Shown: in pieces, positions 42,531 through 62,979 of the stretch | How the letters are laid out: every line of letters begins with the position of its first letter | Position numbering within the stretch: position 1 is the first letter of the stretch | NCBI GenBank assembly: GCA_021604845.1 | Contig: BQJT01000002.1 | Span: 2,495 to 66,494, forward strand | Direction: 5' to 3' | DNA from: Cyclobacteriaceae bacterium | GTDB lineage: Bacteria; Bacteroidota; Bacteroidia; Cytophagales; Cyclobacteriaceae | Length of the DNA: 64,000 bases | The notes under the pieces: generated by a model | Database searches by the model: none | What the model was told of the DNA's origin: nothing | Seen by the model: the letters and a program-made list of their open reading frames with translations, nothing else | Translations under genes and position numbers: made by a program

Positions 42531-42568
42531 TTAGCAAACCCCTTTCTGGTTATTATTTTCAACACTTC

Positions 42569-42589
42569 AGTCCAGCCTCGAGCTGGACT
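42569..42589. terminator. Hairpin between convergent genes (ParB-like gene and metallophosphoesterase)
   Basis: AGTCCAGC (42569-42576) pairs with GCTGGACT (42582-42589), an 8-bp stem with a 5-nt loop and AT-rich flanks. Confidence 0.45.
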
Positions 42590-42707
42590 AGTATTAATTT
42601 TAAAACTAATAAAAATGGTTTTATACTATTATAAATAGTATTAGAATTTATCATGAAGTAGTGCCCAGGTATTATTCAATTATCTCATAATTATTTTACC
42701 TGTGCTC

Positions 42708-43877: not shown

Positions 43878-44101
43878 ACCGCTTTATAATTTGTAAATAA
43901 TAATGAAACCATGGACGATTGTAAATTCGAAACAAATAGCCTAGCATTCCCTTTAATAGGAATAAAGCAACAACTACTAAAAACCACTGACATGTATATA
44001 GAACTGCAACACCTGGATATGTATACAAAAAAATTGGATACGGTTTCTATCCAGCCAATATTCTCAAAATAACCTAACTTTTTTATACCTAATCTTAGGA
44101 C

Positions 44102-44131
44102 GTTAGACTCTATCTAGATAAGTAGTCTAAC
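44102..44131. promoter_or_regulatory. 30-nt imperfect palindrome in the divergent promoter region; candidate operator
   Basis: GTTAGACT (44102-44109) and AGTCTAAC (44124-44131) are exact reverse complements. They flank the internal 10-bp palindrome TATCTAGATA (44111-44120). Confidence 0.3.
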
Positions 44132-44243
44132 ATAAACAATCCACCCCTATGTTCATGCACCGGGAGCTATGACTGACTATAATGTTCAATAAGCTGATAT
44201 AAAATCAATTGGATATCGAACAAGTAAACTTTCCCAATTTGTA

Positions 44244-47195
44244 ATGGTCTCTATAATAAAACTTCTATTAACGATCTCCTTACTGAGCTTTTCAATTGGT
44301 TGCAGCCAGAAAGAAAAAATGATACTGGTATTTAGTAAAACTGAAGGCTATCGACATAATTCCATTGAATCAGGAATTAAGGCCCTGAAAAAATTGGGTG
44401 CCGAAAACGATATTAAAGTTACTGCAACCGAAGATGTGCGTTACATTGAAGAGGATTCACTTATACAATATGCCGCGGTTGTATTTTTGAATACCTCAGG
44501 AGATATTTTGAACTATGAGCAACGAGCCGATCTGGAACGTTACATTCAGGCTGGTGGTGGATTTGTAGGAGTACATGCAGCGGCTAATACGGAATATGAC
44601 TGGCCATGGTACAATCAGTTGGTTGGAGCCTATTTTGATAATCATCCCAAGGTACAGGAAGCTATTATTAAGGTTATCGACAAAAATCATTCGTCCACTT
44701 CTTCCCTGGATAGCATATGGGTAAAAACAGATGAATGGTACAACTTTAGAGATTTCAATCCGAATATAAATGTCGCCCTTGAAGTTGATGGAGAAAGCTT
44801 TGAAGGAGGGAAACACGGAGTACACCACCCAATTTCCTGGTACCACAATTTCGATGGTGGACGTTCATTTTATACAGGTTTAGGCCATACAAATGAAACC
44901 TATTACAGTCCCATCTTTCTAAAACACCTCCTAGGCGGTATCCAATATGCCATGGGGAATAATGCCTTAAATTATCAGCTTTCTACCACGGATCGTGTTC
45001 CCAAAGAGGACCGGTTTGAGCAAACCGTGCTCGATTTTAATTTGAATGAACCGATGGAACTTGATGAGATTCCAGGTAAGGGAATTTTGTTTGTCGAACG
45101 GCGGGGCCTCCTGAAGTTTTACGATTTTAAAACAGAAAGAACCAAGAATCTGGCACAAATGGACGTATTCTATGGACATGAAGAGGGTCTTTTAGGCTTG
45201 GCGGTAGATCCCAACTACCAGGAAAACCATTGGATATATTTGTTTTACTCTGTTGTAGGAGAAGAAAAACAAAATATTTCTCGATTCACACTAAATGATT
45301 TCAAATTGGATATCGCTTCTGAGAAAGTACTACTCTCGATCCCTATTGATAGAGGTGGTAATCACATTGGAGGTGCTTTGGAATTTGGGCCTAAAGGACA
45401 TTTGTTTATAACAGTTGGTGATAATACCATTCCTTTTCAATCTTCTGGTTTTGCACCAATCGACGAGAGGGAAGGAAGATTAATATACGATGCCCAAAAA
45501 TCAGCTGGAAATACCAACGATCTAAGGGGAGCAATTCTAAGGATAAAACCCGAGAAAGACGGAACATATTCCATTCCCGGGAATAATCTTTTTCCCGTAG
45601 GGACACCCAAAACCCGACCAGAAATTTATGTAAAAGGATGTCGAAACCCCTTTAGGGCATCCGTGGACAGCAAGACAGGATACGTTTATTGGGGCGATGT
45701 AGGGCCCGATGCCGGGAAAGCAGACCCCAGTCGTGGCCCGGCTGGCATGGGAGAATTTAACCAGGCCAGAAAACCTGGATTTTGGGGCTGGCCGTATACC
45801 AGGGGGTATAATGAGCCTTATTTTGATTTCGATTTTGCCACAGGTAAGTCAGGTAAGAAATTTGACCCCGATCACCTGATCAATGACTCGCCCAACAATA
45901 CAGGAATGAAACGATTGCCAATAGCTCAAAAATCGATGATTCCAATGACCTATTACCGTTCGAAAGAGTTCCCGTGGATGGGCGAGGGGGGAATAAATCC
46001 AATGGCAGGGCCAGTTTTTCATGCCTCGGATCTGCTTAACGCGCAACAACCGTTCCCCGAATATTTTGAGAGCAAGTTGTTTCTGTACGATTGGATGCGA
46101 AATTGGATCTATGTGGTGACATTGGACGACAGCTGCAGTTATATAAAGGCGGATGCCTTTATGCCTAATACCAAATTTTCGCGGCCGATGGATATGATCT
46201 TTGGATCGGATGGAAATCTATACCTCTTGGAGTATGGTCAAAAATGGAAAACTCAGAACCTCGATGCCAGGCTGAGTCGTATTTCCTATAATCCTGGGAA
46301 TCGAAAACCACTAGCAAAAATCACTCAGAATAGAGCCGTTGGTTCGATACCATTAACCGTTCAGTTTTCAGCGGCGGGATCAAGGGACCCTGAAGGAGAC
46401 CCCTTGTTCTATCAATGGTCATTTACTAATGATGACGTGCAGTCCACCGAAATCAACCCAACTTTTACTTTTACCGAACCTGGGCATTATACCATACGCT
46501 TAAAGGTTACGGATGCCCAAGGCGAAACCACCGCTACCCGTAGTAAGATCCTGGCGGGCAATGATGTGCCTCAATTGAGCATTCATATTGAGCCTTGGGA
46601 TACTGTTTATCGATATGATAAAATAATAAAGTACACAGTTATTGTCAATGATAGACAAGACGGAAGTACAAAGGACGGTACCATAGATGCCAGTAAAGTT
46701 ACTGTGACCTTTAATTTTGTTCCTGAAGGCAGGGATATAGTGCAAGCCACTTTAGGCCATCAAAGTAATCCAGCACTAGAGGGTAAGCAGATTATAGATG
46801 AAACAGATTGCAAGGGCTGTCATGCAGTGTCTGAAAAGATAAGCGGCCCCAGTTATGCGGAAATAGCAAAAAAGTATACTGAAACTGATAAAGATTATCT
46901 CATAGCCAAGATAATCAAGGGAGGAGCAGGAGTTTGGGGAGAGAATCCCATGTCTGCTCATCCACAATTGCGGTTGGAAGATGTAAGTAAAATAGTGGAT
47001 TATATCCTCTCAATATTACCAACCAAAGCGACACTTGAATCATTGCCTTTGGAAGGTACTATATCGTTTAATGAACACATCAAGAATAATACGGAAGGTT
47101 CCTATGTACTCATGGCTTCATATTTGGATAATGGTATTACCGGACAAGAAGGCACCCAACTTATGGTCAGTGAGCAGATCGTATTTAACAAGTAA
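44244..47195 (+). CDS. Four-module fusion protein: ThuA-like domain + PQQ-dependent sugar dehydrogenase-like beta-propeller + PKD domain + c-type cytochrome
   Basis: 983 aa. ThuA module: ILVFSKTEGYRHNSI. Sugar dehydrogenase module: GLLGLAVDPNY. PKD module: PLTVQFSAAGSRDPEGDPLFYQWSF. Heme site: CKGCH. Confidence 0.85.
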   Translation: MVSIIKLLLTISLLSFSIGCSQKEKMILVFSKTEGYRHNSIESGIKALKKLGAENDIKVTATEDVRYIEEDSLIQYAAVVFLNTSGDILNYEQRADLERYIQAGGGFVGVHAAANTEYDWPWYNQLVGAYFDNHPKVQEAIIKVIDKNHSSTSSLDSIWVKTDEWYNFRDFNPNINVALEVDGESFEGGKHGVHHPISWYHNFDGGRSFYTGLGHTNETYYSPIFLKHLLGGIQYAMGNNALNYQLSTTDRVPKEDRFEQTVLDFNLNEPMELDEIPGKGILFVERRGLLKFYDFKTERTKNLAQMDVFYGHEEGLLGLAVDPNYQENHWIYLFYSVVGEEKQNISRFTLNDFKLDIASEKVLLSIPIDRGGNHIGGALEFGPKGHLFITVGDNTIPFQSSGFAPIDEREGRLIYDAQKSAGNTNDLRGAILRIKPEKDGTYSIPGNNLFPVGTPKTRPEIYVKGCRNPFRASVDSKTGYVYWGDVGPDAGKADPSRGPAGMGEFNQARKPGFWGWPYTRGYNEPYFDFDFATGKSGKKFDPDHLINDSPNNTGMKRLPIAQKSMIPMTYYRSKEFPWMGEGGINPMAGPVFHASDLLNAQQPFPEYFESKLFLYDWMRNWIYVVTLDDSCSYIKADAFMPNTKFSRPMDMIFGSDGNLYLLEYGQKWKTQNLDARLSRISYNPGNRKPLAKITQNRAVGSIPLTVQFSAAGSRDPEGDPLFYQWSFTNDDVQSTEINPTFTFTEPGHYTIRLKVTDAQGETTATRSKILAGNDVPQLSIHIEPWDTVYRYDKIIKYTVIVNDRQDGSTKDGTIDASKVTVTFNFVPEGRDIVQATLGHQSNPALEGKQIIDETDCKGCHAVSEKISGPSYAEIAKKYTETDKDYLIAKIIKGGAGVWGENPMSAHPQLRLEDVSKIVDYILSILPTKATLESLPLEGTISFNEHIKNNTEGSYVLMASYLDNGITGQEGTQLMVSEQIVFNK

Positions 47196-47496
47196 AAAGT
47201 CACCATGAACGTTTAGTAAATGCTATTTCTAAACCCGGATTCTTACAACTTGCAAATTGGGGCTAATTGCAGTAAGAAGCTGTAAAACTGCAATATTCTG
47301 TAGCCATTTCGGAATTACCGTACTCTATAAAGTTAAATGGAGAAGCATGTCTAAAGATCAAACAGGAAACTCTCTATTCTAAATAAGTAGAGCCTTTAAC
47401 ACAACTTCTAGAACAATAAAATCAAGACAAGCGAACCGTTCCCCTTGTACAGAACAATTTACCCGCTAGAGTAGACCCAAATAAAAATATGAGATT

Positions 47497-49971
47497 ATGA
47501 TTTTTAAACCAATGTTCAAGATGCTTTTTACCTCAACGGTATTCATCATTCTGTTTCAATCGTGTACAGATGACCAGTCAAACAGTAGGCACCCGTTAGA
47601 ATTAGAAGAAGGCAGTTATTTATTATCGAATGGGTGGAAGCTTTCTCCTGCAGGTAGAGAGGTTGATCTAGGAGGGCTACCGCTTAACGTGGCCATAGTT
47701 CCTGATGGACTTTATGCGGTAGTAACAAGTAATGGTTATACTGACCATTTCTTGGCTTTGGTAGATTTGGAGGAGGAAAAAATTGTTGACCGTGAATTGA
47801 TTACCAGGGGATGGATTGGTTTGGATGTAAGTAAAGAAAATGGATTAGTGTATGCATCTGCGGGAGGTGAAGATCGAATTTTGATATACACAATTGAGAA
47901 TCAACAATTGTTAAAATCTGGTGAGATTTCACTTCCAAAGGGGAGCTACCCAACAGGCATAACTATCCCTGAGGAAGGTAAATACCTATATGTGGTTGGA
48001 AATCATTCTAGTATGCTCTATCAAGTTGACTTGGAAACGAACAAAGTTGCTTCATCCTGGGAAGTCGGGATTACACCGTATGCCTGCAGTATATCCTCTA
48101 ATTCAAAAACAGCATATATTAGCAACTGGGGTGAGAATTCAGTCTCAATAATTGATCTAACCCAGTCCGGGAATGAGAATAAAATATTAGTTAAGGATCA
48201 CCCAAATGATTTATTGCTAAGCAAAAAGGAAGACTATCTATATGTTGCTAGTGGAAATTGGAATACAGTAAGCGTAATTGATTTAAGCAAGAATTTCGTA
48301 GTCGAGGAAATCGAGGTATCACTCCATCCCGGTGCACCTGCAGGGAGTACTCCAAATGCGCTTGCACTAAGTGATGATGGGAGGATATTGTATGTAGCCA
48401 ACGCAGACAATAACTGCATTGCATTAATCGATGTTTCGGATTCAGGTAACAGTAACCCTATTGGCTATATTCCAACTGGATGGTATCCAACATCAGTTGC
48501 TATCTCGGAGAACGGAAAGAAAATGATAGTTGCCAATGGTAAGGGAAGTACATCAAGTCCAAGCGGGGATAAATCAAACAACCTTCCCGGAGGGAATATT
48601 CGTGAAGTTTTGGAGGGGACAGTTTCATTTATAGATATTCCGAATAACCAAGAATTAGCAGAATACTCCGTTCAAGTTTATCGCAACTCTCCCTATGAGA
48701 ATCGCAATCAATTCAAGCCACCCTTTAAGTTAGCAGAAGACTGTCCCATCGAATACGTTTTTTATATTATAAAGGAAAATAGAACCTATGACCAGATATT
48801 CGGTGATATGGAAATCGGTAATGGGGACCCTAATTATTGCTATTTCCCGGAAGAAGTCACCCCCAATCATCATGCTTTAGCCAGGGAGTTTGTCCTGTTT
48901 GATAATTTTTATCACGATGCCGAGGTAAGTATGGATGGGCATTTTTGGGTCACTGCTGGCTATGCAACAGATTATGTTGAAAAATTTTGGCCCGGTATTT
49001 ATGGCCGAAAAGGCAATCCAAGACTTTACGTTCATGATGATTCTATAGCCTATCCTAGTAGTGGATTTCTGTGGGATCGTTGCGCTGAATATGGCATTAC
49101 TTACCGGAGTTACGGTGAGTTTGCCCGTGTATGGATTCCTGATGGAGATGAAAAGTACCCTTCATTTGATAATCTGAAGAATAAACGGTTTAGTTGGTCA
49201 CAGGAAGATTATGAGAAAGGAATGAGGATCAGACCTGCAACACCTAGTCTTGAAGGACATTATCACCCCAAGTACGCCGGATCCGATTATATTCAGGGCA
49301 TGTCAGATTCAGAACGGTTTGATATATGGCTGGAGGAGTTTAAAACTTTTAAAGAAGCAGGTGAGATGCCAAAATTTACTGTACTCTCACTACCAGGTGA
49401 CCACTTGCTAGGAACTCGTCCAGGGGTTCAGACCCCGCGAGCAATGATGGCCGAGAACGATTTCATTCTCGGAAAGATGGTTGAAGAAATTAGTAATAGC
49501 CCATTTTGGGAAAAAACAGCGATTTTCGTTATAGAAGACGATCCACAAGCAGGCCCCGACCATGTGGACTGTCATCGGACAGTGGCCTTGACAATCAGTC
49601 CATACACTAGAAGAGGAATCGTTGACTCAACCATGTATTCATCATCGAGTATGTTAAGAACAATGGAAGAAATTCTTGGCCTACCACCCCTATCTCAATA
49701 TGACGCTTATGCTACTCCTATGTGGAATGCATTTCAATCGAAACCAAATTTTAAACCCTATACCGCATTAATGAATCGAATTCCTTTGGATGAACTGAAT
49801 ACAGAAAAATCCTATGGTGCAGAGCTGTCTAAAGAATTACCAATTGAGCAGGCAGATGTTGCTCCAGATGACGTTTATAGTAAATTATTGTGGCATGCTA
49901 TTATGGGGGTTGATAGGTCATTTCCGCCAAGGAAAAGAGCCACTTTCGTTATTGGAATTGATCGCGATTGA
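47497..49971 (+). CDS. Fusion of a YncE-like beta-propeller and a phosphoesterase (phospholipase C / acid phosphatase family)
   Basis: 824 aa. The N-terminal half has repeated LYV..N..N.VSVIDL-type propeller blades. The C-terminal half has IKENRTYDQIFGD and VIEDDPQAGPDHVDCHR, as in PLC/AcpA-type phosphoesterases. Confidence 0.82.
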   Translation: MIFKPMFKMLFTSTVFIILFQSCTDDQSNSRHPLELEEGSYLLSNGWKLSPAGREVDLGGLPLNVAIVPDGLYAVVTSNGYTDHFLALVDLEEEKIVDRELITRGWIGLDVSKENGLVYASAGGEDRILIYTIENQQLLKSGEISLPKGSYPTGITIPEEGKYLYVVGNHSSMLYQVDLETNKVASSWEVGITPYACSISSNSKTAYISNWGENSVSIIDLTQSGNENKILVKDHPNDLLLSKKEDYLYVASGNWNTVSVIDLSKNFVVEEIEVSLHPGAPAGSTPNALALSDDGRILYVANADNNCIALIDVSDSGNSNPIGYIPTGWYPTSVAISENGKKMIVANGKGSTSSPSGDKSNNLPGGNIREVLEGTVSFIDIPNNQELAEYSVQVYRNSPYENRNQFKPPFKLAEDCPIEYVFYIIKENRTYDQIFGDMEIGNGDPNYCYFPEEVTPNHHALAREFVLFDNFYHDAEVSMDGHFWVTAGYATDYVEKFWPGIYGRKGNPRLYVHDDSIAYPSSGFLWDRCAEYGITYRSYGEFARVWIPDGDEKYPSFDNLKNKRFSWSQEDYEKGMRIRPATPSLEGHYHPKYAGSDYIQGMSDSERFDIWLEEFKTFKEAGEMPKFTVLSLPGDHLLGTRPGVQTPRAMMAENDFILGKMVEEISNSPFWEKTAIFVIEDDPQAGPDHVDCHRTVALTISPYTRRGIVDSTMYSSSSMLRTMEEILGLPPLSQYDAYATPMWNAFQSKPNFKPYTALMNRIPLDELNTEKSYGAELSKELPIEQADVAPDDVYSKLLWHAIMGVDRSFPPRKRATFVIGIDRD

Positions 49972-49990
49972 ATGTGTTAATCGTCAGTAA

Positions 49991-52066
49991 ATGAGTAAGC
50001 ATATCATGAAAATCGGAACTGCCTCAGTACCACTGCTATTTGCTTTCATTAGCGAAGTGAGTGCAATGGCAATCGAAGATTCAGTTAGACGGGATACAAC
50101 TATTACAACAATTTTTCTAAACCAGGAGGTAATTGTGACTGCTACCCGTCAAAAAAGCAGAGTCTTCCTTTATCCAGAAGCCGTTTCAGTGCTGAACCAA
50201 GAAAATCTTTCGCTTTTGGCGCCAATGTCAATGCCAGAAACTTTGACGTACTTGCCAGGTATTTGGATGCAAAAAACCAATCACGGAGGCGGTTCACCCT
50301 ATTTACGTGGGTTAACCGGTTATCATACCTTATTGCTTATCGACGGCATCAGGTTCAATAACACAACCTTCCGTTCAGGTCCCAATCAATACCTTAATAC
50401 CATCGATCCATTGATGACGGATCGGATTGAAACCATTCGGGGACAAGGTTCAGTACAATATGGTAGCGATGCAATCGGTGGGGTAGTGCATATTCTAAGT
50501 AAAAAACCACAATTCTCTTTTACTGGACTGGACTGGACTGGAAAATTATATACGAAATTTCTCAGTTCCAATATGGAGAGTACCGGTCGAGTGTCACTAG
50601 GAATGAGTGCTGAGAGAACGGCATTTTCAGCTGGGTATACTAGTAAAAAATTAGGTGATATCAAAGCCGGGGGCAATCTGGGAACATTGGAACCAACCGG
50701 GTATGATGAGAATTCAATAGATTTTAAATTGTTGCAAAAGATTACACCTAAACAAATACTTACTATTGCCTATCAAAGACATTCACAAAAGCATGTTCCG
50801 TTGTATCACCAAATTGTAAGCGGAGAATATGAATTGTACCATTTTGACAAGCAGGAAAGGGACCTAGCATATATAAAATGGGATTTTGCTACAAATAGCA
50901 AAATGTTCAAAGAGGTTCGTTTCATCCAATCACTACAGCATACACTTGAAAGAAGATCGAAACGGAAAACTAATGAAGTTATAACCCAAAAAGATGAAGA
51001 CAAAGTGACGACAATAGGTACCGTAGTTGAAATTATTTCCAACGCCACACCGACTTGGAGTATTTCATCAGGCGTTGACTTTTACTATGATAAAGTGCTC
51101 AGTTCAACATCTGAACATTCCAATATTAATCCAACAAAAAATTATAGAGGTTTATACCCGGATAACTCCTCCGATATGAGTTTTGCGGCTTTTTCGCTGC
51201 ACACTGTCGAACTTAGACGGTTCAACTTATCATTTGGTGGCAGGTATGACGCGACCTGGTTGGAGATTGATGATGCTATTTTTGGAGAAACCATTATTAG
51301 CCCCACTGCATTGGTAGGAAATGCCAGTTTAGTGTATAAGTTGAATTCAAAAGTCAACTTAACAGGGTTAGTGAATACAGGTTTTCGGGCTCCGAACCTA
51401 AATGATGTGTCAAGTTTTGGAATAGCGGATTTCAGATATGAGGTACCCAATTTTGACTTAGAGCCTGAAAAGTCAATTAGTCTAGAGGTTGGAGTAAAAT
51501 CGAACGCGGACAGATTTTCTTCTAATTTCTATTTGTTCCGAACGGATTTAAAAGATTTGATCGCTAACGTACCAGCAACATACAACAATCAAAATACAAT
51601 TGATGGAGTTCAAGTCTATCAAAGAGAAAACGTTGGAAATGCTGTGATTTATGGTATAGAGTCAGATATAGAATATCTACTTACATCAACTATATACATA
51701 CGGGGTAATATCAACTATACTTTTGGGAAAAACATTAACAGTGGAAAACCTATGAGGCGAATTCCTCCGCTTTATGGGAGTGCTGACATTTCTTATGACA
51801 CAAATTTTAAAGTAAGGATTTTTGCCCGATGGTCATTCGCGGGTAAGCAAGATCGTTTATCCCCAGGAGATATTGCAGATAACAGAATTGCCGTGGACGG
51901 TACTAATGGATGGAATAATTTTGATTTGAGTGTGCATTATCTACGAAACCATTTCCAGATCCAGACTGGCATAAACAACCTGTTCGATGAAGGCTATCGA
52001 ATGCATGGTTCCGGTGTGGATGGAATTGGTAGAAGTTTTTGGCTATCGTTAGTTTTGAATAAGTGA
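49991..52066 (+). CDS. TonB-dependent receptor (not SusC-type)
   Basis: 691 aa with a TonB-box-like EVIVTATR. The plug is IETIRGQGSVQYGSDAIGGVVHI. The beta-barrel half is rich in alternating aromatic residues. Confidence 0.88.
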   Translation: MSKHIMKIGTASVPLLFAFISEVSAMAIEDSVRRDTTITTIFLNQEVIVTATRQKSRVFLYPEAVSVLNQENLSLLAPMSMPETLTYLPGIWMQKTNHGGGSPYLRGLTGYHTLLLIDGIRFNNTTFRSGPNQYLNTIDPLMTDRIETIRGQGSVQYGSDAIGGVVHILSKKPQFSFTGLDWTGKLYTKFLSSNMESTGRVSLGMSAERTAFSAGYTSKKLGDIKAGGNLGTLEPTGYDENSIDFKLLQKITPKQILTIAYQRHSQKHVPLYHQIVSGEYELYHFDKQERDLAYIKWDFATNSKMFKEVRFIQSLQHTLERRSKRKTNEVITQKDEDKVTTIGTVVEIISNATPTWSISSGVDFYYDKVLSSTSEHSNINPTKNYRGLYPDNSSDMSFAAFSLHTVELRRFNLSFGGRYDATWLEIDDAIFGETIISPTALVGNASLVYKLNSKVNLTGLVNTGFRAPNLNDVSSFGIADFRYEVPNFDLEPEKSISLEVGVKSNADRFSSNFYLFRTDLKDLIANVPATYNNQNTIDGVQVYQRENVGNAVIYGIESDIEYLLTSTIYIRGNINYTFGKNINSGKPMRRIPPLYGSADISYDTNFKVRIFARWSFAGKQDRLSPGDIADNRIAVDGTNGWNNFDLSVHYLRNHFQIQTGINNLFDEGYRMHGSGVDGIGRSFWLSLVLNK

Positions 52067-52362: not shown

Positions 52363-52436
52363 TAATTAATCTAAAGTCACTCACTTACCAACAAAAAAGC
52401 CCGACACAATGTGTCAGGCTTTCCTTCGTAGCGGGG
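52363..52436. repeat. Direct repeat DR2: truncated att copy (terminator region plus only the last 8 nt of the tRNA)
   Basis: TAATTAA...ACTTACCAACAAAAAAGCCCGACACAATGTGTCAGGCTTTCCTTCGTAGCGGGG matches DR1/DR3 with a 4-nt indel. Homology stops at 52436, where integrase-internal sequence begins. Confidence 0.78.
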
Positions 52437-52438
52437 AA

Positions 52439-52935
52439 GGCTACAATTCGCCTTCTATTTTGCAGGGATTCGGATTACTGATGTGCTTTGCATGAGATGG
52501 CTGGACTTCAAAGATGATAGACTACAATACGTGATGCACAAGAACAACAAACCAGTGTCATTAAAGATACCCGAGAAAGCCAAGGCCAGTTTGAAATTCT
52601 ATGAACAAGAAAAAAAAGCTTCAAATGATTTTATCTTTCCGGATCTCAAAAAGGCCAATCCTAGATACAAGCGGGATCTATTTATAAAAACGCGCACGGC
52701 AACTAAACGATTTAACAATTACCTCAAACAGATTGCAACTCTAGCCAAAATTGATAAGAGTCTAAGCAATCATATAGCCCGTCATTCTTTTGCAAATATT
52801 GCCGGTGATAAGATACACCCTTTAATGCTGCAGAAACTTTATCGTCACTCTGATTTGAAAACCACCATAAATTACCAGGCAAATTTTATTCATAAGGAGG
52901 CTGATGAGGCGTTGGATAGTGTGGTGGATTTTTAG
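52439..52935 (+). pseudogene. 3' remnant of a tyrosine integrase (corresponds to about residues 240-405 of the intact copy)
   Basis: The tracked 150-aa ORF (52483-52935) differs from the C-terminus of the 8619-9836 integrase at 14 of 149 aligned residues by my count. DNA homology (FAFYFAGIRITDVL) starts at about 52439, directly abutting the att remnant. The N-terminal two-thirds are absent. Confidence 0.88.
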
Positions 52936-53137
52936 TGCTATTTAACGTTTAATTTTCCGATAAATCATTGCCAAGGAACAAGTACTGGATTTGTATTTCA
53001 AGGTATAATGATTTTACTTACAAGTTGTAACTAATCCAAAACCTGACATTAAACAGTTACCTAGTTTAGTAGCTCGATTAGCTCAAGCAGATACCGAGGC
53101 TTTCAGTGAAGTTTACAGGCAGAATTACAACCGGCTA

Positions 53138-53590
53138 ATGCGTTATGGGTTAATCATACACCGCGATACCAACGTAGTGGCGGATGTAATACAGGAATTG
53201 TTTGTGTGGTTGTTGCAGAATCCATCTAGCGTAAAAAATATTAAGAACCTTGAGTTATATTTATTCAAATCACTCAAAAGAAACCTGTTGCGTTACCGAG
53301 CGGACCATGCCCATCTAACGAATTTTCCTTTGCACGAAAATCCTGAATATTTAGACTTTACTATTGAAGATCGTATAATTCAACAAGAGACCAAGGGTCA
53401 ACAAAGAAAATTATTATACAAAGAATTAAATAATCTTCCACCCAAACAAAAAGAGGTCATTTACCTTCGTTACTATGAGAGCCTGACCTATGAAGAAATC
53501 GCCGATATTCTCTCAACCAATAATCAGGTAGTACGCAACTACGTATCCAGGGCACTAACTCAATTGAGAAAGTCACTAGATTCCTACTAG
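53138..53590 (+). CDS. ECF-type sigma-70 factor, apparently N-terminally disrupted (see findings)
   Basis: 150 aa from the first ATG. Region 2 is VADVIQELFVWLL. Region 4 is LPPKQKEVIYLRYYESLTYEEIADILSTNNQVVRNYVSRALTQL. The expected N-terminal segment (..LAQADTEAF) is encoded upstream in another frame. Confidence 0.7.
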   Translation: MRYGLIIHRDTNVVADVIQELFVWLLQNPSSVKNIKNLELYLFKSLKRNLLRYRADHAHLTNFPLHENPEYLDFTIEDRIIQQETKGQQRKLLYKELNNLPPKQKEVIYLRYYESLTYEEIADILSTNNQVVRNYVSRALTQLRKSLDSY

Positions 53591-53719
53591 GGTAGTAAAT
53601 TTTTTAAATAAAAATTCTACTCAAAAGGTTACAGATAGCCTTTGGCTGCATCTTATATGAAAGGATCAGGCCATGTTGCTTGACATTTTGGAAATTTTGA
53701 AAAGATATCTCATTAATCA

Positions 53720-54721
53720 ATGCATGGATTTGAAAATTATATAGATCATAAATTTGAAGATTTCATCGAAGACGAAAAATTCAAAAATTGGGTGGCTAAT
53801 CCTGGTGAGCATGATACTTTTTGGAAGAAATTCGTTCAAGCCTTTCCGGAAAAAACGGAAACAGTCAATCAAGCCAGGGAATTTCTGCTAGCTACACGCA
53901 TTTATTTTGAAACTAGTGATGTAAGTGTACAACAAATTGAGGAGGGTTTGCAACAAGTATTGCAGCAAGCTCCAAAAGATCAGGCAAACCAGAGATGGCT
54001 ACCAATATCAATTCGGTGGGTAGCAGCGGCCTCGATACTTCTCCTTTGTTTAACAGGCGCCTACTTCTATTTTCTTAGTAGTGATCTGACCACCTATACT
54101 ACAGATTACGGGGAATGGAAATCTGTGGAATTGCCTGATGGATCCAAGGTTCAACTCAATGCAAACTCAGAATTGATTTTGGCCGAGGACTGGTCATCAG
54201 GTGTAACAAGACAAGTTTGGCTGAAAGGAGAGGCATTTTTCACGGTATCGAAAAAACAGGCAACCAATACTAAATTTCAGGTTATAACAGACGATTTAAC
54301 CGTTGAAGTGCTTGGTACTGAATTTAACGTTCAGGATAGGGGACCACAAACTGAGGTTTATCTTCAGGAAGGTAAAATTAAGCTTGATTTAGGGATTTCA
54401 GAAGAAGATCTCGCTCCTGGAGATTTCGTATCTTATTCGGCGGAGAGAAGCGAGATTATCAGCCATAAAAGAATGTCTGCCGATGAGTTTACCTCCTGGA
54501 AGGAAGGAGTATTGAAATTGAATAATACCACTATCCTGGAAATTCTTAGAGAAATAGAAGAGATCTATGGAGTAGAGATCATGGCTTCCAATAAAACCAT
54601 GCTTAGTGAAAGAAGGACTATAGGAGTTCCCATGCAAAATCTGGAGATCGTTATTCCTATTCTGGAAACCACTTTGGATGTTGAGATAAGAAAAGTGGGT
54701 AAAAAGCTTTTCATAAAATAA
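53720..54721 (+). CDS. FecR-family anti-sigma factor
   Basis: 333 aa with a TM segment (WVAAASILLLCLTGAYFYFL) and the FecR motif LKGEAFFTVSKKQATNTKFQVIT. Confidence 0.88.
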   Translation: MHGFENYIDHKFEDFIEDEKFKNWVANPGEHDTFWKKFVQAFPEKTETVNQAREFLLATRIYFETSDVSVQQIEEGLQQVLQQAPKDQANQRWLPISIRWVAAASILLLCLTGAYFYFLSSDLTTYTTDYGEWKSVELPDGSKVQLNANSELILAEDWSSGVTRQVWLKGEAFFTVSKKQATNTKFQVITDDLTVEVLGTEFNVQDRGPQTEVYLQEGKIKLDLGISEEDLAPGDFVSYSAERSEIISHKRMSADEFTSWKEGVLKLNNTTILEILREIEEIYGVEIMASNKTMLSERRTIGVPMQNLEIVIPILETTLDVEIRKVGKKLFIK

Positions 54722-54804
54722 ACACCGGGACATTTTGACGCCTTGCCCCGGTATTTTGAATTAATTATAAACAGCTAAACTAAGTTTAACCAATCGCAAA
54801 TGTA

Positions 54805-57800
54805 ATGAAACACCTGAACAAATTCCTATTTATGATTCTGTTTGTTACCCTCCCGTTGTCGGGCTGGCCGGTAACAAAGCAGTTGTCCACGCTAAGTGAG
54901 GTACCGCAAAAAATTGCCGAAAAGTATCAAGTGTTTTTCACCTATGACTCCGAGGAGTTGAACCAAATAGACGTTCTATTTGAATTCAAAGATGATGAAT
55001 CGTTAAATAGCGCAATAATTCGCTTGCTGGCTTCTACCAATTACGTATACGAATCATTTGGCAGCAGGTATTACGTTATTTACGAAAAAACCAGGGCTGG
55101 AAAGAAGAAAGCTAATAAAATGCGCCATCACCTGCGCGAGCTTTGGAGGCTAGAACAAGATGGGGTTAACTTGAATAGGGCTAATAATCCAAGTCAAAGG
55201 TTTAATCAAATAATTGAAAAAGTATCTTCAACATATGAAGAGTTATCCATAAGTGGAAAGGTTACGGATGAAAATGATAACCCTCTTCCTGGGGTGAGTG
55301 TATTAGTTAAGGGAACTACATTGGGAACTACAACTAACACGGAGGGATATTTTGAGCTGGAGGTACCAGATACTGAATCCATCATAGTTTTCAGCTTCGT
55401 AGGCTATCTGAGTCAGGAAATTTTAATTGGTGGTAATCAAACTTCATTTGGTATTCGAATGAGTCCCGATACCAAACAATTGGACGAATTAGTTGTTACA
55501 GCTCTTGGATTAGAGAGACAAAAAAAGGCACTAGGCTATGCTACTCAACAAGTAGAAGGTGATGAGATTGTAGCTACAAGGGAACCCAATTTGGTTAGTT
55601 CTTTGTCGGGCAAAATTGCTGGAGCTCAAATTACAAACACAAGTGGTGCAGTTGGAGCTACTTCCACAATTATTCTAAGGGGATATAAGTCGATATCAGG
55701 TAATAACCAACCACTTTTTGTGGTAGATGGAGTTCCAATAAGCAATCAAACTCATCAGTCTTCAAGAGCTTTTGAAGCACAAGCAAGCAATAATAGCGGT
55801 TATTGGCAAGACCAGCAAGTTGATTATGGAAATGCAGCAGCCGAAATTAACCCAAGTGATATCGAAAGCGTCCAGGTCTTAAAGGGAGCAAATGCTGCAG
55901 CTTTGTACGGTGCAAGGGCTGCTAATGGCGTGGTATTTATAACAATGAAAAGTGGAAAAGGGCAAACAGGATTGGGCATAGACATTAACTCAAGTGTTTC
56001 GTTTCAAACTCCCTTAAAAACTCCAAAATTCCAAACAGAGTTCGGAAAGGGCAAGGACGGTCTGTATTCGTTTCCTGATATAAACGCAAATGGTGGATTG
56101 AGTTTTGGCCCAAAGTTTGACGGACAGATTATTTCTCAGTATGATCCTGCAAATCCTTCGACCCCACGTATGATTCCATGGGTGAACAGGCTTGGTAGTG
56201 ACCCTGTTCGTGATTTTCTCGAAACAGGTATAACGCAAAATCATGGATTTTCCGTAACCAATGGTAATGATAAGGGAAATTTTCGTTTGTCATACAACTG
56301 GATGGATCAAAAGGGTATGGTGCCAAATACAGATTTGACACGCAATAATTTGGGTTTTAATGCATCCTATAGCCCTAGTTCTAAAATGACCTTCAGTGCC
56401 AACGTAAACTATGTCAATTCTAAAAGTGATAATAGGCCACAAATTGGGCGTAGAAATGAGAATAACATCATGCAGGAACTACTCAAGTTAGGAGGACAAC
56501 AGAGTTTAGATGAATTAAAGAATTATTGGGAACCGTTTAAAGAAGATATTCAACAGGCAACGCCTGACAACCTTGTTAACAATCCATATTTCATTTTAAA
56601 TGAAAATCTGAATGGAAATAAAAGGGACCGCTTCTTTGGCAATGTCACTTTTAGCTATGACATATTAGAGAAGCTATCGATGCGAGTAAGAGTAGGAACC
56701 GACTTTTATAATGATCGCAGAACTTACAGAAAAGCATTTTCTAATATAGAACTTCGAGGTGGCACGCAATTTATAAACGGTACATTCAGGATGGAGAATA
56801 TTGTATACCAGGAAGATAATACTGATATATTGTTCACGTATAAAACTGATTTGGGAGCAAACTTTTCAATGACCATCAATGGTGGAGGTAATCGAATGAC
56901 ACAGAATGTCGAAGAGTTTAGAGCTAACGTAGAAGATGGTCTCGTTGTTCCAGGGTTATACAACTTATCAAATAGTAGGTCTGCACTAAGTGCTGAAAAT
57001 TTTGTCTCAAATAAAAAGATCAATAGTGTATTCGGGTCTGCACAATTGGGTTACAGAGATTACATATTTTTAGATATTTCTGCTAGAAATGACTGGTCAA
57101 GCGCTCTTCCAATCAATAACAACTCCTACTTCTATCCCTCAATTTCAATGAGCGCAATAGTTTCAGATATATTCGATCTTGGTCTCAATTCTTCTAATGA
57201 CATGATCAAAGTTCGGGCAAGCTATGCGCAAGTAGGTAATGATACCGGCCCTTATCAAACCGGAAGAGTAACCATAGGAGGTGGAACTATACAAGGAATT
57301 TCAGTTAACTCCATTAAGGGAACTCTTGGCAATGCCAATTTAAAACCAGAGGAGATTGAATCTTATGAAGTTGGTATCGAGGCTGGCCTTTTCAAGAATC
57401 GCCTGAATTTCGATGCAACCTACTATTCAATAACAAATGTAAATCAGATAACTAACATTCAGCTTCCGGCTGAAACAGGGTATCTTGAAAGAGTGATAAA
57501 TATTCCTGCCGAGATCAGAAACCAAGGAGTAGAACTGGCTTTAAACCTTGGTATTGTTGAAACTAATAATTTCAATTGGAGCTTTGGAATAAATTGGGCA
57601 AAAAATAATAATAAGGTCACAAACTTTAGTGATGACCCTAATGAAAGATTAACCATTGTTGAGCGTTTTATCAATCTTGACATCACCGAAGGTGGCAGTT
57701 ATGGTGATATTTATGGTGACTATTTACTGAAAGTGGATGCTAATGGAAAATTAGGTCAAGAAGGGGAACAAATATTTAGACCTGATGGTAGATCAGAAGA

Positions 57801-58449
57801 ATCGGACGATGTTGGTAGTTTAGTTAATGACCCTAAACCATACCTTGGAAGTGTAATACCCGATTGGATAGGTGGTGTTCGAAATACATTCGCGTTCAAA
57901 CAGCTTAGCCTTTATATTCTATTTGATATTAACAGCGGAGGTAAAATGTATTCTAGAACGTTTGTTCGTGGAAATCAACTGGGAGCTTTACAAGAGTCTG
58001 TAGAATTAATCACTAGGGATTCTCAAGAAGCAAGGGATGCTGCAATTGCGAATGGTCATAACGTACTTCCAGGCGAACAATGGGTGATATTGGAAGGTGC
58101 TACCCTTGATAGATCAACGGGGCAAACAGAAACAGGAAAGACTATTATCGCCAGGACAGAAAATTTTTATTTGAGGCATTACGATAATGACCTTACGGGA
58201 ACATTTGATCGATCTTTTGTCAAATTAAGAGAACTGAGGTTAACCTACCAATTGTCACCAATACTATTAGCCAAACTACCATTTAAAGGGGCAAGTGTTT
58301 CTTTTATTGGCCGAAACCTTTTCTTATGGGATAAAGTACCCCATGTTGATCCCGAGTCCGCTGGATTTAGTGGAGAAATACCAGGTGGTGAATTTTATGC
58401 ACTTCCTTCAGCCAAGAGTTTTGGTTTTAACATCAATCTTAAATTCTAG
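54805..58449 (+). CDS. SusC-type TonB-dependent transducer with an N-terminal signalling extension
   Basis: 1214 aa. The STN-like extension is IIRLLASTNYVYESFGSRYYVIY. It also has GKVTDENDNPLPGVSVLVKGTTLGTTTNTEGYFEL, the plug VQVLKGANAAALYGARAANGVVFITMKSG and the barrel end FGFNINLKF. Confidence 0.92.
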   Translation: MKHLNKFLFMILFVTLPLSGWPVTKQLSTLSEVPQKIAEKYQVFFTYDSEELNQIDVLFEFKDDESLNSAIIRLLASTNYVYESFGSRYYVIYEKTRAGKKKANKMRHHLRELWRLEQDGVNLNRANNPSQRFNQIIEKVSSTYEELSISGKVTDENDNPLPGVSVLVKGTTLGTTTNTEGYFELEVPDTESIIVFSFVGYLSQEILIGGNQTSFGIRMSPDTKQLDELVVTALGLERQKKALGYATQQVEGDEIVATREPNLVSSLSGKIAGAQITNTSGAVGATSTIILRGYKSISGNNQPLFVVDGVPISNQTHQSSRAFEAQASNNSGYWQDQQVDYGNAAAEINPSDIESVQVLKGANAAALYGARAANGVVFITMKSGKGQTGLGIDINSSVSFQTPLKTPKFQTEFGKGKDGLYSFPDINANGGLSFGPKFDGQIISQYDPANPSTPRMIPWVNRLGSDPVRDFLETGITQNHGFSVTNGNDKGNFRLSYNWMDQKGMVPNTDLTRNNLGFNASYSPSSKMTFSANVNYVNSKSDNRPQIGRRNENNIMQELLKLGGQQSLDELKNYWEPFKEDIQQATPDNLVNNPYFILNENLNGNKRDRFFGNVTFSYDILEKLSMRVRVGTDFYNDRRTYRKAFSNIELRGGTQFINGTFRMENIVYQEDNTDILFTYKTDLGANFSMTINGGGNRMTQNVEEFRANVEDGLVVPGLYNLSNSRSALSAENFVSNKKINSVFGSAQLGYRDYIFLDISARNDWSSALPINNNSYFYPSISMSAIVSDIFDLGLNSSNDMIKVRASYAQVGNDTGPYQTGRVTIGGGTIQGISVNSIKGTLGNANLKPEEIESYEVGIEAGLFKNRLNFDATYYSITNVNQITNIQLPAETGYLERVINIPAEIRNQGVELALNLGIVETNNFNWSFGINWAKNNNKVTNFSDDPNERLTIVERFINLDITEGGSYGDIYGDYLLKVDANGKLGQEGEQIFRPDGRSEESDDVGSLVNDPKPYLGSVIPDWIGGVRNTFAFKQLSLYILFDINSGGKMYSRTFVRGNQLGALQESVELITRDSQEARDAAIANGHNVLPGEQWVILEGATLDRSTGQTETGKTIIARTENFYLRHYDNDLTGTFDRSFVKLRELRLTYQLSPILLAKLPFKGASVSFIGRNLFLWDKVPHVDPESAGFSGEIPGGEFYALPSAKSFGFNINLKF

Positions 58450-58467
58450 TTTAGACTAATAAATATC

Positions 58468-60006
58468 ATGATGAAAAGAATCACTAAAATATTTGATAAA
58501 TCAATTGTCCTAAGTTTATCCTGCATCCTTATGTTCAGTACTTGTGATCATGGGTTTGAGGAATTAAATATAAACCCCAATCAGTCCGAAAATGACCCTA
58601 GTCTAGATTTGTTGTTCGGTAGTATTTTGCCAGGTTTTATTGGTCAAGTTATTGGTCAGGATGGGAATCCTGTAACCGGAAACGGAGGTACTGCAAACTT
58701 TGGAGGTGAGTTATCCCAGCAATTTGCCAATAAAAATTCAGAAGTTGGAAGATTATCACACGATGAAAATGCTTTCCATTGGGTTTTTTGGTTCTCAGTT
58801 TATTCTGAAAATGGGGGCGCTATGCGTAATATAGCGTTTCTAATCGAGGAAGCTGCAAAGCAAGAAAATGAGGTGTACATGGCGTTAGGGCTCATATATA
58901 AAGCTTTCACATTGGGTTACACAACAGACCTATTTGGGGATGTACCGTACATTGATGCTGGGAAGGGTTTTCTTTTAGAAGACCAATACTTATTCCCAAA
59001 ATTTGATCCACAGCAAGAAATATACAAAGCGATGTTAAATGACTTGGAAACAGCAAATAGCCTTTTGGCTTCAGCTCCATCCAATCAGTTAATAGATAGT
59101 AACAGAGACCTTTTATTTGCGGGTGACCGGATGGCGTGGAGAAAGTTTGCTAATTCTCTAAGAATAAGAATATTGATGCGAATGTCAAATGTAGAAGATG
59201 TTGGGTCGAGGGTAGCGGAAATTTTTAATTCTCCCGATTCCCCTGTTTTAGAAGGTGTAAAAGATGAACCTTCATTTTCATTTAGTTTTCAAGAAAATTG
59301 GCCTTATTCTCTTTCAAATGATCCAAATAATGAAAAAAGACTATCCGCAACCATGGTAGATATTTTGAATGGTGAAGGAGGTGTAAACAAAGTTGCAGAT
59401 GTGAGAGATCCAAGATTGCCAGTTTTTGTTAACCCAACAATTGCATCTATTGCTAATGGTAGTCCAGAATATGTGGGCCAGCCTGTTGGTTTAATTTCAG
59501 ATTTTGCCGATGACGATGAACGATCAATGCTTACTGATTACGTAAGAGAATTAAATACAGTTTGGTTATTGACATATGCGGATCTGCTTCTACTCAAAGC
59601 TGAAGCAGTCCATAGGGGTATGATCTCAGGTGATGTGACTCAAATATTTGAAGATGGAGTTAAAGCCTCGTTAGATCGTTTTGGAATTGATCTTTCGGTT
59701 TCGGAAACGACAGATTTTCTTGCAAGTATAAAAAGTAATTTTTCAGGCAATGAATTAAAGCATATTGCGATCCAGAGATGGATTGACAATATTTTTCAGG
59801 GCATGGAAGGATACGCTATTTGGAGAAGGACAGATTTCCCAATCCTAGTAACTGGACCAGATGCCACTTTTGATGAGACACCTACTCGGTATAGCTATAC
59901 AAGTCATATGCTTTCTGAAAATGGTGAAAATGTAAATAGTGCTGTCAATCGCGCTCCTTTAAATGGATTAAATACTTCCTTCAACAAAGTTTGGTGGGAC
60001 CAATAA
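58468..60006 (+). CDS. SusD-like nutrient-binding outer-membrane lipoprotein (shorter SusD-like subfamily)
   Basis: 512 aa with lipoprotein signal LSLSCILMFSTC. It lies 18 nt after the SusC gene. It has TPR-like helical content and WRRTDFP near the C-terminus. Confidence 0.82.
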   Translation: MMKRITKIFDKSIVLSLSCILMFSTCDHGFEELNINPNQSENDPSLDLLFGSILPGFIGQVIGQDGNPVTGNGGTANFGGELSQQFANKNSEVGRLSHDENAFHWVFWFSVYSENGGAMRNIAFLIEEAAKQENEVYMALGLIYKAFTLGYTTDLFGDVPYIDAGKGFLLEDQYLFPKFDPQQEIYKAMLNDLETANSLLASAPSNQLIDSNRDLLFAGDRMAWRKFANSLRIRILMRMSNVEDVGSRVAEIFNSPDSPVLEGVKDEPSFSFSFQENWPYSLSNDPNNEKRLSATMVDILNGEGGVNKVADVRDPRLPVFVNPTIASIANGSPEYVGQPVGLISDFADDDERSMLTDYVRELNTVWLLTYADLLLLKAEAVHRGMISGDVTQIFEDGVKASLDRFGIDLSVSETTDFLASIKSNFSGNELKHIAIQRWIDNIFQGMEGYAIWRRTDFPILVTGPDATFDETPTRYSYTSHMLSENGENVNSAVNRAPLNGLNTSFNKVWWDQ

Positions 60007-60038
60007 TAGCTGATCTTTACTGCTGAGAACTGCAATTC

Positions 60039-60063
60039 ACAAAGGGAGAACATCTCCCTTTGT
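60039..60063 (+). terminator. Stem-loop directly after the SusD-like gene
   Basis: ACAAAGGGAGA (60039-60049) pairs with TCTCCCTTTGT (60053-60063), an 11-bp perfect stem with a 3-nt loop. Confidence 0.5.
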
Positions 60064-60102
60064 ACCCATTGACAAATCAACTCACATTCAAATTAAATTA
60101 TT

Positions 60103-61197: not shown

Positions 61198-61488
61198 CTT
61201 ACTACAAAAGTACCTTACAAAAAGACCGTATCAATTACCGACGCCAAATTCAATAAACTAAGTTTAAGGACAATAAACAGCACTGACTCACTCACTACTA
61301 GCCGATTAGTTTCCCTAGATACTTACCGCGGACTGATTATATTCCTGCTGATAGCAGAATCAGCTTTTGTATACCATGCCCTTACCGGAATTTTCTCGGA
61401 AGGAACTTTTGGAGCAGCAGTAGTTCAGCAGTTTCACCATCATCCCTGGAATGGGCTGCGGTTCTGGGACCTTATTCAGCCTTTTTTC

Positions 61489-62844: not shown

Positions 62845-62979
<135 letters not shown>

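What the first reader, a model, noticed from the sequence alone, without database searches (positions are those of the whole stretch)
52363..52935. Deletion scar fuses an att remnant to the middle of a second integrase; the internal att site is probably dead
DR2 keeps the terminator-like part of the repeat but only 8 nt of the tRNA portion (TAGCGGGG, 52429-52436). Two to three nucleotides later the sequence is homologous to the intact integrase gene from about codon 240 (FAFYFAGIRITDVL...). One deletion therefore removed about 36 nt of the att core, the arm region and about 720 nt of the integrase. Because the anticodon-loop crossover region is missing from DR2, island A can probably no longer excise alone. 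Only DR1 x DR3 recombination, releasing the whole 54.5-kb composite, would use intact cores, and it would be driven in trans by the island-A integrase. The 14 substitutions in 149 residues indicate two independent sibling elements rather than a recent duplication.
Basis: partly seen in the sequence, partly recalled or inferred. Interest (0 to 1): 0.6.

Follow-up and report, generated by a model that had tools for sequence, protein, structure and literature searches.

The report
Deletion scar welding two genomic islands
Two related integrase-borne gene islands sit side by side at a methionine tRNA gene, and a deletion of about 0.93 kb has destroyed the recombination site and most of the integrase between them, an ordinary, well-known way in which such islands decay and fuse.

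Summary
An intact tRNA-Met(CAT) gene lies at 62906-62979 (-). Its 3' 45 nt plus 61 nt of downstream terminator hairpin recur at 8345-8450 (DR1, 94%), followed by a full-length integrase (intA, 8619-9836).

The middle copy, DR2 (52363-52436), keeps the hairpin but only 8-9 nt of tRNA. Nine nt of unclear origin follow (AAGGCTACA, 52437-52445). From 52446 to the stop at 52935 the sequence matches intA codons 244-405 at 89% nt identity. In island-A coordinates the missing piece is 932 nt: 36 nt of tRNA block, the 168-nt arm and 728 nt of integrase. An independent assembly of a biofilm metagenome spans the junction at uniform depth.

The two integrases diverged under purifying selection (dN/dS 0.095, dS 0.49), so they are siblings, not a recent duplication.

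In 57 of 66 relatives the element-borne tRNA block ends just past the anticodon loop. Where both ends of a relative are visible, only the tRNA block is shared. DR2 has therefore lost the likely crossover region and is probably dead.

Whether the 54.5-kb composite can still excise is open. No excision products, excisionase or canonical far-arm repeats were found. This is a new example of known tandem accretion plus deletion, and interest is low.

The parts
8345..8450 (.). DR1, the integrase-proximal junction of island A. It comprises a terminator-like 61 nt (8345-8405) and the displaced 3' 45 nt of tRNA-Met (8406-8450).
   Evidence: 106 nt, 94% identical to 62845-62950, with the tRNA part identical.
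8451..8618 (+). Arm of island A between the tRNA block and intA. It carries TTGTAT(C/T)C three times at 10-nt spacing (8460-8487) and ATGTTGTAC twice at 11-nt spacing (8553-8572). These are the likely arm-type integrase binding sites (inferred).
   Evidence: The tandem TGTAC pair is found 52-75 nt upstream of the integrase start in nearly all of the 53 (of 65) relatives that carry it (two lie ~206 nt upstream), against 0.22 expected in shuffles. It occurs only once in the window.
8619..9836 (+). intA, a full-length tyrosine integrase of 405 aa.
   Evidence: Pfam domains Arm-DNA-bind_5, Phage_int_SAM_5 and Phage_integrase. It has the same length as most relatives.
10019..52066 (.). Cargo of island A: ECF sigma/FecR, SusC/SusD, GH109, GH123, sugar-acid and amino-sugar enzymes, transporters and a TonB receptor. 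No transfer, mobilisation or excisionase genes were detected.
   Evidence: Pfam and NCBIfam scans.
52363..52436 (.). DR2, the remnant of the inner att site. It keeps the terminator-like part (hairpin 52399-52419) and the last 8-9 nt of the tRNA (52428/9-52436).
   Evidence: Alignments to DR1 and DR3 and hairpin fold with z -4.1.
52437..52445 (.). Nine nt at the junction (AAGGCTACA) of uncertain origin, here called filler.
   Evidence: Reported as 'letters between the two sides of the joint'. An alternative alignment needs a 3-nt insertion that no relative has.
52446..52935 (+). intB remnant, codons 244-405 plus the stop, i.e. the catalytic domain only. All catalytic-motif residues are encoded, but an in-frame TAG lies at 52429-52431. 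The first possible start (GTG 52483) lies after the first catalytic arginine (R252 equivalent).
   Evidence: Pfam places the Phage_integrase domain of intA at residues 238-389.
53012..62382 (.). Cargo of island B: ECF sigma (start possibly lost), FecR, SusC/SusD, alkaline phosphatase and a NagX-like membrane protein.
62845..62950 (.). DR3, the tRNA-proximal junction. It comprises an element-supplied terminator-like 61 nt and the 3' 45 nt of the working tRNA gene.
62906..62979 (-). Intact tRNA-Met(CAT) gene, the integration target. It looks like an initiator tRNA (1:72 mismatch and three G-C pairs closing the anticodon stem, judged from my own knowledge).
   Evidence: ARAGORN; sequence read.

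Best explanation
Two sibling integrative islands of one Bacteroidota tyrosine-integrase family inserted one after the other into the same tRNA-Met gene. The result was a head-to-tail array: DR1-arm-intA-cargoA-DR2-arm-intB-cargoB-DR3/tRNA.

Later an illegitimate deletion of about 0.93 kb, probably a single event that left a 9-nt filler, removed three things. These were the inner 36 nt of the tRNA block (T-arm and anticodon arm), the whole arm of island B, and the first 243 codons of intB (the arm-binding and core-binding domains).

What remains cannot work. DR2 lacks the segment where this family recombines. The intB remnant cannot be translated with its first catalytic arginine. Islands A and B are therefore welded together. 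Neither can leave alone, and island B has no recombination machinery of its own.

The only pair of intact cores is DR1 and DR3, 54.5 kb apart, with IntA as the only intact integrase. Shown: the anatomy, the divergence pattern, the family-wide att boundary and the presence of the junction in an independent assembly. Inferred: the order of events, the single deletion, the crossover position and the deadness of DR2. Whether the composite still excises is open; I put it at about one in three.
For: - **Anatomy and size of the loss:**
- **Junction is real:** it is spanned by a 43-kb contig at 18x, the same depth as the flanks and both islands.
- **Siblings, with inactivation late relative to divergence:** dN/dS 0.095, dS 0.49, differences by codon position 13/6/34, and no stop or frameshift in 486 nt. 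Homology ends at the stop codon (20/100 identity after it).
- **The family's att is the tRNA 3' block ending at the anticodon loop:** 57 of 66 loci, also L168.
- **Repeats of L002 and L089 share only the tRNA block**.
- **The undeleted state exists in relatives.** In 19 of 106 loci another element's arm repeat abuts the integrase-proximal tRNA fragment. This includes two integrases 34.6 kb apart on one Agaribacillus aureus contig.
- **Literature:** tDNA islands cross over in the anticodon loop, the T loop or the T/acceptor junction, and DR2 retains none of these (Islander paper, PMC4383910). Tandem accretion followed by decay is a described route (PMC5704250).
Against: - No experiment or read-level data locates the crossover for this family. 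The anticodon-loop position rests on the edge of the identity block and on analogy.
- The 9-nt filler and a 4-nt indel in DR2 allow more than one event.
- No relative with an intact island B was found, so the pre-deletion state of this particular island is reconstructed, not observed.
- The three repeats share 61-72 nt of terminator-like sequence. Relatives do not do this and the simple model does not explain it.
Confidence: 0.8

Rival explanations
1. The scar is the sum of several independent small events (two or more deletions and an insertion) rather than one deletion. The end state is the same.
For: There is a 9-nt filler at the joint. Parts of it can be aligned either to the tRNA (AGG...CTAC) or to intA (GGCTA). 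DR2 also carries a separate 4-nt indel.
Against: One deletion with short filler DNA is the more economical reading. The rest of the intB remnant shows no further indel, stop or frameshift.
Confidence: 0.15
2. The whole array is already immobile. Besides DR2, the tRNA-side arms of both islands lack functional arm-type sites, so DR1 x DR3 excision does not occur either.
For: Relatives carry a tandem TGTAC pair about 67 nt from the tRNA 3' end on that arm (L002, L089, and 19 abutting junctions). The window has none within 300-500 nt left of DR2 or DR3. No excisionase-like gene was found. Depth is uniform and there are no excision joints in the contigs.
Against: The terminator-like left parts of DR2 and DR3 are conserved between the siblings about as well as the integrase (about 90%). 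That suggests a maintained, possibly functional, non-canonical arm. Contigs cannot show rare excision. Only two complete relatives define the 'canonical' arm.
Confidence: 0.4
3. DR2 and the integrase fragment arose by duplication of the DR1-intA module inside a single island, not by arrival of a second element.
For: The two modules are homologous and co-oriented.
Against: There is 11% nucleotide divergence with strong synonymous bias (dS 0.49, dN/dS 0.095). That means long independent evolution as working genes. DR2 sits exactly between two self-contained cargo sets, each with its own sigma/anti-sigma/SusC/SusD. Tandem arrays of distinct siblings are common in the family.
Confidence: 0.04
4. 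Island A integrated by site-specific recombination into a secondary site inside intB.
For: There is a weak resemblance between the anticodon-arm sequence CGACCTTCGGG and intA codons 244-247, TCGCCTTCTAT (my reading).
Against: That event would leave the full element-borne tRNA block up to the anticodon loop next to intB codon 244. It would also leave intB codons 1-243 to the left of island A. Instead only 8-9 nt of tRNA remain at DR2, and DR1 is followed by an ordinary arm and a full-length integrase. Short homologues elsewhere are frameshifts, contig ends or truncations at other residues, so there is no recurrent breakpoint.
Confidence: 0.02
5. The junction is an assembly artefact caused by the repeated integrase or tRNA sequence.
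For: Assemblies do break at these repeats. Logan contigs end inside the shared integrase and tRNA segments.
Against: One contig runs from unique island A sequence through DR2 and the filler into 115 nt of intB-specific sequence with zero differences. Its depth is the same as the surroundings.
Confidence: 0.02

Closest known systems
Tandem accretion and deletion of genomic islands (ICESt1/CIME model of Streptococcus thermophilus; Pavlovic et al. 2004, as reviewed in PMC5704250)
   Same: Two elements with the same site specificity sit head to tail at one target gene. One of them has decayed by deletion of its recombination module. The result is a composite bounded by the outer att sites.
   Different: In the CIME model the decayed element keeps both attL and attR and can be mobilised in cis. 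Here the inner att core itself is deleted, so the two parts are irreversibly joined. No conjugation or mobilisation genes are present in either island.
tRNA-gene islands with anticodon-centred attachment sites (Islander database, PMC4383910; Williams 2002, cited there)
   Same: There is an intact tDNA, a co-oriented displaced 3' fragment and a tyrosine integrase. The identity block runs from the anticodon loop to the 3' end (45 nt). The element restores the gene's 3' half.
   Different: Islander calls a tandem array only when each member has its own fragment and integrase. Island B fails both tests and would be merged with A or flagged as damaged. The repeats here also extend 61 nt beyond the tRNA.
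Composite genomic island CGI48 at tRNA-Trp in Shewanella putrefaciens (PMC8978831, abstract only seen)
   Same: It is a composite island at a tRNA gene, used as a model for island evolution.
   Different: That composite holds an inner island with its own separate target and is described as able to revert to its components. Here the inner junction is destroyed.
Bacteroides mobilisable elements NBU1/NBU2 and their integrases (own knowledge, not tested here)
   Same: Bacteroidota tyrosine integrases that target the 3' end of tRNA genes.
   Different: Those elements carry mobilisation genes and oriT, use short 13-14-bp cores at the tRNA 3' end, and are about 10 kb. The present islands carry only metabolic cargo and use a 45-nt block reaching the anticodon loop.

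Membership tests
Bacteroidota-type tyrosine integrase (arm-binding + SAM-like core-binding + catalytic domain) | Three-domain architecture | tested here: met
   intA has PF17293, PF13102 and PF00589. The intB remnant has only the PF00589 part, so it is a fragment of a member.
Bacteroidota-type tyrosine integrase (arm-binding + SAM-like core-binding + catalytic domain) | Catalytic R...K...HxxR...H...Y residues | tested here: inconclusive
   The motifs AGIR252, HIAR355H, YRH377 and NY386 are present in intA and unchanged in the intB remnant. The assignment is by motif only, with no structural or biochemical test.
tDNA-integrated genomic island (Islander criteria) | Intact tRNA gene plus co-oriented displaced fragment with an integrase gene between them | tested here: met
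   tRNA at 62906-62979, fragment at 8406-8450, intA at 8619-9836.
tDNA-integrated genomic island (Islander criteria) | [quoted passage not shown] | tested here: not met
   Island B has only 8-9 nt of fragment and 40% of an integrase gene.
Anticodon-loop ('A') sublocation class of tDNA attachment sites | Identity block between the displaced fragment and the tRNA starts at the anticodon loop and runs to the 3' end | tested here: met
   The block is 62906-62950, with the loop TTATGAG at 62942-48. The same edge is seen in 57 of 66 relatives. The actual strand-exchange positions were not testable.
CIME (cis-mobilisable element) | Lost integration and transfer genes but retains functional attL and attR | tested here: not met
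   Island B's integrase-side att lacks 36 of the 45 nt of the tRNA block and the whole arm.
ICE or IME | Conjugation or mobilisation genes (relaxase, coupling protein, mating-pore genes) or oriT | tested here: not met
   No such Pfam or NCBIfam hit in any ORF of 90 aa or more in either island. oriT was not searched.
Prophage | Capsid, terminase, tail or lysis genes | tested here: not met
   The cargo is metabolic, transport and regulatory.

The most novel reading that the evidence does not exclude
The scar is one visible step in how a widespread, so far undescribed family of integrase-only islands builds large fixed multi-locus islands. The family targets the initiator-type tRNA-Met gene across Cytophagales, Flavobacteriales and Balneolales. 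It has a conserved att layout: a 45-nt tRNA block, 11-bp-phased TGTAC arm repeats and an integrase about 170 nt away. Frequent tandem arrays (19 of 106 loci) would be followed by loss of the inner att. The 61-72-nt homology of all three repeats would mean that the region left of DR1 is a third, already anonymous, sibling island.
Probability: 0.2. Interest if true: 0.4.

Novelty: new member of a known kind. Interest (0 to 1): 0.2.

Why it matters
The locus is a clean, datable example of island fixation. Two mobile cargo sets, each a SusC/SusD nutrient-uptake locus with its own sigma/anti-sigma pair, have become one block because the site between them was deleted. It shows how annotation pipelines that require a fragment plus an integrase per island will miscount such arrays. 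The side result is probably more useful than the scar itself. The family-wide att and arm layout, and the high frequency of tandem arrays, give a concrete substrate set for testing this integrase family.

Tried and rejected
1. **Recurrent, site-specific truncation of this integrase at codon ~244.** The first protein search returned many 133-200-aa homologues, apparently because the listing was limited to short proteins. Those inspected are frameshifted genes (L082, L083, L084, L085/86), a contig-end gene (L081), or truncations at other residues next to unrelated DNA (L116 at ~204; L169 at 73). Rejected.

2. **A relative with full-length intB or an intact island B.** None was found. The best hits were 68% in the genome collection and 73% in metagenome contigs. 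Protein hits at 82-94% (P0001, P0002, P0121, P0122) are all slightly closer to intA and sit on contigs of at most 9 kb.

3. **Excision products.** Only assembled contigs of two metagenome runs hold the locus, and the unitigs break inside the shared 45 nt. So neither circles nor empty sites can be seen or excluded.

4. **A third repeat or integrase left of DR1.** None within 17.5 kb (L167).

5. **SusC/SusD loci as typical cargo of the family.** Not so: 5 of 80 loci on the island side against 8 of 80 on the chromosomal side.

6. **Simple terminator scan.** It did not flag the hairpin, but folding does.

7. **Williams 2002** could not be read because it is not held.

Full report
**1. What is there**

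The window holds one tRNA gene, tRNA-Met(CAT), at 62906-62979 on the minus strand. From my own knowledge of initiator tRNAs, it has the 1:72 mismatch and the three G-C pairs closing the anticodon stem.

- The 3' 45 nt of this gene plus the 61 nt downstream recur at 8345-8450 (DR1) with 94% identity. The tRNA part is identical.
- After DR1 comes 168 nt of non-coding arm, then a 405-aa tyrosine integrase, intA (8619-9836). Pfam assigns it Arm-DNA-bind_5, Phage_int_SAM_5 and Phage_integrase domains.
- A third copy, DR2 (52363-52436), aligns with the terminator-like part of DR1 and DR3 at 88-93%, with one 4-nt indel.
- In all three copies the retained part folds, on the tRNA's strand, into a 9-15-bp hairpin followed by U6 (z -4.1 to -4.8). 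This is the shape of an intrinsic terminator for the tRNA.

**2. The junction**

Gapless homology to intA starts at 52446 (= 9347, codon 244, FAFYFAGIR) and runs to the stop at 52935. Between the tRNA remnant and this point lie 9 nt, AAGGCTACA (52437-52445).

None of about 110 full-length relatives has an extra residue between WL and FAF. I therefore treat the 9 nt as filler of unclear origin.
- I laid the Logan contigs of a biofilm metagenome run on the intA region. The tool itself reports a joint that skips 8414 -> 9347 (932 nt) with AAGGCTACA between the two sides.
- In island-A coordinates the missing DNA is 36 nt of the tRNA block, the 168-nt arm and 728 nt of integrase.
- A 43,032-nt contig at 18x runs from intA through all of island A, DR2 and the filler into 115 nt of intB-specific sequence without a difference. 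Depth is 17-18x on both flanks and both islands. The junction is real and fixed in that population.

**3. The integrase remnant**

The remnant corresponds to the Pfam catalytic domain (intA residues 238-389) and keeps every catalytic-motif residue.

- Its frame is closed by TAG at 52429-52431.
- The first possible start is GTG at 52483, after the arginine of AGIR. Any product would lack that arginine and both DNA-binding domains.
- Against intA there are 53 differences in 486 nt (89.1% identity), distributed 13/6/34 over the codon positions. dN is 0.047, dS is 0.49 and dN/dS is 0.095.
- There are 15 amino-acid changes in 162 residues.
- Homology ends at the stop codon, with 20/100 identity afterwards.

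The two genes therefore diverged for a long time as working genes. The truncation is recent relative to that divergence. This supports sibling elements rather than a recent duplication.

**4. The islands**

- Island A (about 44 kb) carries ECF sigma/FecR, SusC/SusD, GH109, GH123, sugar-acid and amino-sugar enzymes, transporters and a TonB receptor.
- Island B (about 10.5 kb) carries sigma/FecR, SusC/SusD, an alkaline phosphatase and a NagX-like protein.
- Neither island has transfer, mobilisation, phage or excisionase-like genes.
- G+C is 38-41% in the islands against 45-47% at 1-6000.

**5. Where does this family recombine?**

A scan of one genome per species returned 80 loci with relatives at 51-68% identity, from Cyclobacteriaceae, Roseivirgaceae, Balneola and many Flavobacteriaceae.

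- In 66 of the 80 loci a tRNA-Met 3' fragment lies 154-190 nt (312 nt in two loci) upstream of the integrase, in the same orientation as here.
- In 57 of those 66 the similarity to the tRNA ends at position 44 or 45 from the 3' end (window 62949/62950), two or three nt past the anticodon loop. Beyond that point identity is at chance level. The closest full-length relative, L168 at 81%, shows the same edge.
- Two small relatives have both ends in view, L002 (9.9 kb) and L089 (6.4 kb). Their repeats are only the 45-48-nt tRNA block, and the terminator hairpins at the two ends are unrelated.
- The conserved, element-borne part of att is therefore the tRNA block whose integrase-side edge is the anticodon loop. 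Islander calls this the anticodon-centred class. That paper lists the anticodon loop, the T loop and the T/acceptor junction as the three crossover subsites (PMC4383910).
- DR2 retains none of these three. This is the best evidence available here that DR2 is dead. It remains an inference.

**6. Arm repeats**

- A tandem repeat AT(G/T)(T/C)TGTAC, twice at 11-nt spacing, was found in 53 of 65 relatives. In nearly all of these it lies 52-75 nt upstream of the integrase start; in two it lies ~206 nt upstream. Only 0.22 are expected in shuffles.
- The window's copy is at 8553-8572 and is unique in the 64 kb. These repeats are the likely arm-type sites for the N-terminal domain (inferred). The deletion removed island B's copy.
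- In L002 and L089 the same pair also lies on the other arm, about 50-70 nt beyond the tRNA 3' end.
- In 19 of 106 loci such a pair lies at about -67 to the left of the integrase-proximal fragment. This means that another element of the family abuts there. One example is two integrases 34.6 kb apart on one Agaribacillus aureus contig (L004 and L038).
- Tandem arrays with an intact inner att, which is the state I infer for this locus before the deletion, are therefore common in the family.

**7. What remains open**

- The window has no TGTAC pair within 300-500 nt left of DR2 or DR3.
- All three repeats share 61-72 nt of terminator-like sequence, which relatives do not.
- One reading is that the region left of DR1 is the end of a third sibling island. 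However, no integrase or further repeat lies within 17.5 kb (L167).
- The other reading is that this element lineage carries a captured copy of the host terminator and a non-canonical arm.
DR1 and DR3 do have intact, identical cores 54,500 nt apart, and IntA looks intact. Competence for excision is unproven.
- The contigs show no excision joints, but the unitigs break inside the shared 45 nt and cannot show rare products.

**8. Alternatives considered**

- *Integration of island A into a pseudo-site inside intB.* This is excluded by the anatomy. It would leave the full tRNA block at DR2 and the first 243 codons of intB left of island A.
- *A recurrent truncation mechanism.* This is excluded because the short homologues elsewhere are frameshifts, contig ends, or truncations at other residues.
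- *A relative carrying island B with a full integrase.* None was found.

**9. Comparison and verdict**

The locus is an instance of tandem accretion followed by deletion, described for ICESt1-related elements and reviewed in PMC5704250. It differs from a CIME because the inner att itself is lost, so the fusion is irreversible. It differs from ICEs and IMEs because there are no transfer genes.

It is a new member of a known kind, of low interest. The family-level att and arm architecture and the frequency of tandem arrays are the more reusable by-products.

Noticed in passing
window 8553-8572; loci L001-L166: A tandem 11-nt-phased repeat, AT(G/T)(T/C)TGTAC twice, is conserved in 53 of 65 relatives (0.22 expected by chance), 52-75 nt upstream of the integrase start in nearly all of them. 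It probably marks arm-type binding sites or an operator.
   Followed up: partly
window 8460-8487: TTGTAT(C/T)C occurs three times at 10-nt spacing directly after the displaced tRNA fragment. One similar copy is present in L002.
   Followed up: no
window 8334-8405, 52352-52427, 62845-62905: All three repeats share 61-72 nt of terminator-like sequence beyond the tRNA. In L002 and L089 the two ends share only the tRNA block. The TGTAC pair that relatives have on this arm is missing left of DR2 and DR3.
   Followed up: partly
window 53012-53590: The ECF sigma gene of island B is called from ATG 53138 (150 aa, only region 4 by Pfam). Its frame stays open for 42 more codons upstream with sigma-like residues but no ATG, GTG or TTG. 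The start may be lost or unusual.
   Followed up: partly
window 62906-62979: The target tRNA has initiator features (C1 x U72 mismatch, GGG/CCC closing the anticodon stem), so the islands sit in a probably essential gene. This is judged from my own knowledge only.
   Followed up: no
L004 and L038 (Agaribacillus aureus BMA12, one contig): Two integrases of the family lie 34.6 kb apart, each with a tRNA-Met fragment. The inner junction carries an arm repeat on its left. This is an intact tandem array in a cultured strain, usable for experiments.
   Followed up: partly
L116 1-700; L169 560-800: Two other N-terminally truncated relatives have breakpoints at about residue 204 and residue 73. Each abuts unrelated DNA with no tRNA remnant.
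   Followed up: yes
L020 9773-9846; L021 and L124: In some Ekhidna/Flammeovirgaceae loci the integrase lies 154 nt from the 5' end of a complete tRNA-Met gene, or of its 5' half. This geometry differs from the rest of the family.
   Followed up: no
L002 6760-6807: The displaced tRNA fragment of this relative carries a change in the anticodon itself (TTAAGAG instead of TTATGAG).
   Followed up: no
window 1-6000 versus 8000-62000: G+C is 45-47% in the left flank and 35-43% through both islands. The short right flank is 41%.
   Followed up: no
Read laying at 62942-62952 in runs X1 and X3: Contigs from other community members match the tRNA up to the anticodon loop and then diverge. This suggests that other elements use the same tRNA site in these samples.
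   Followed up: no
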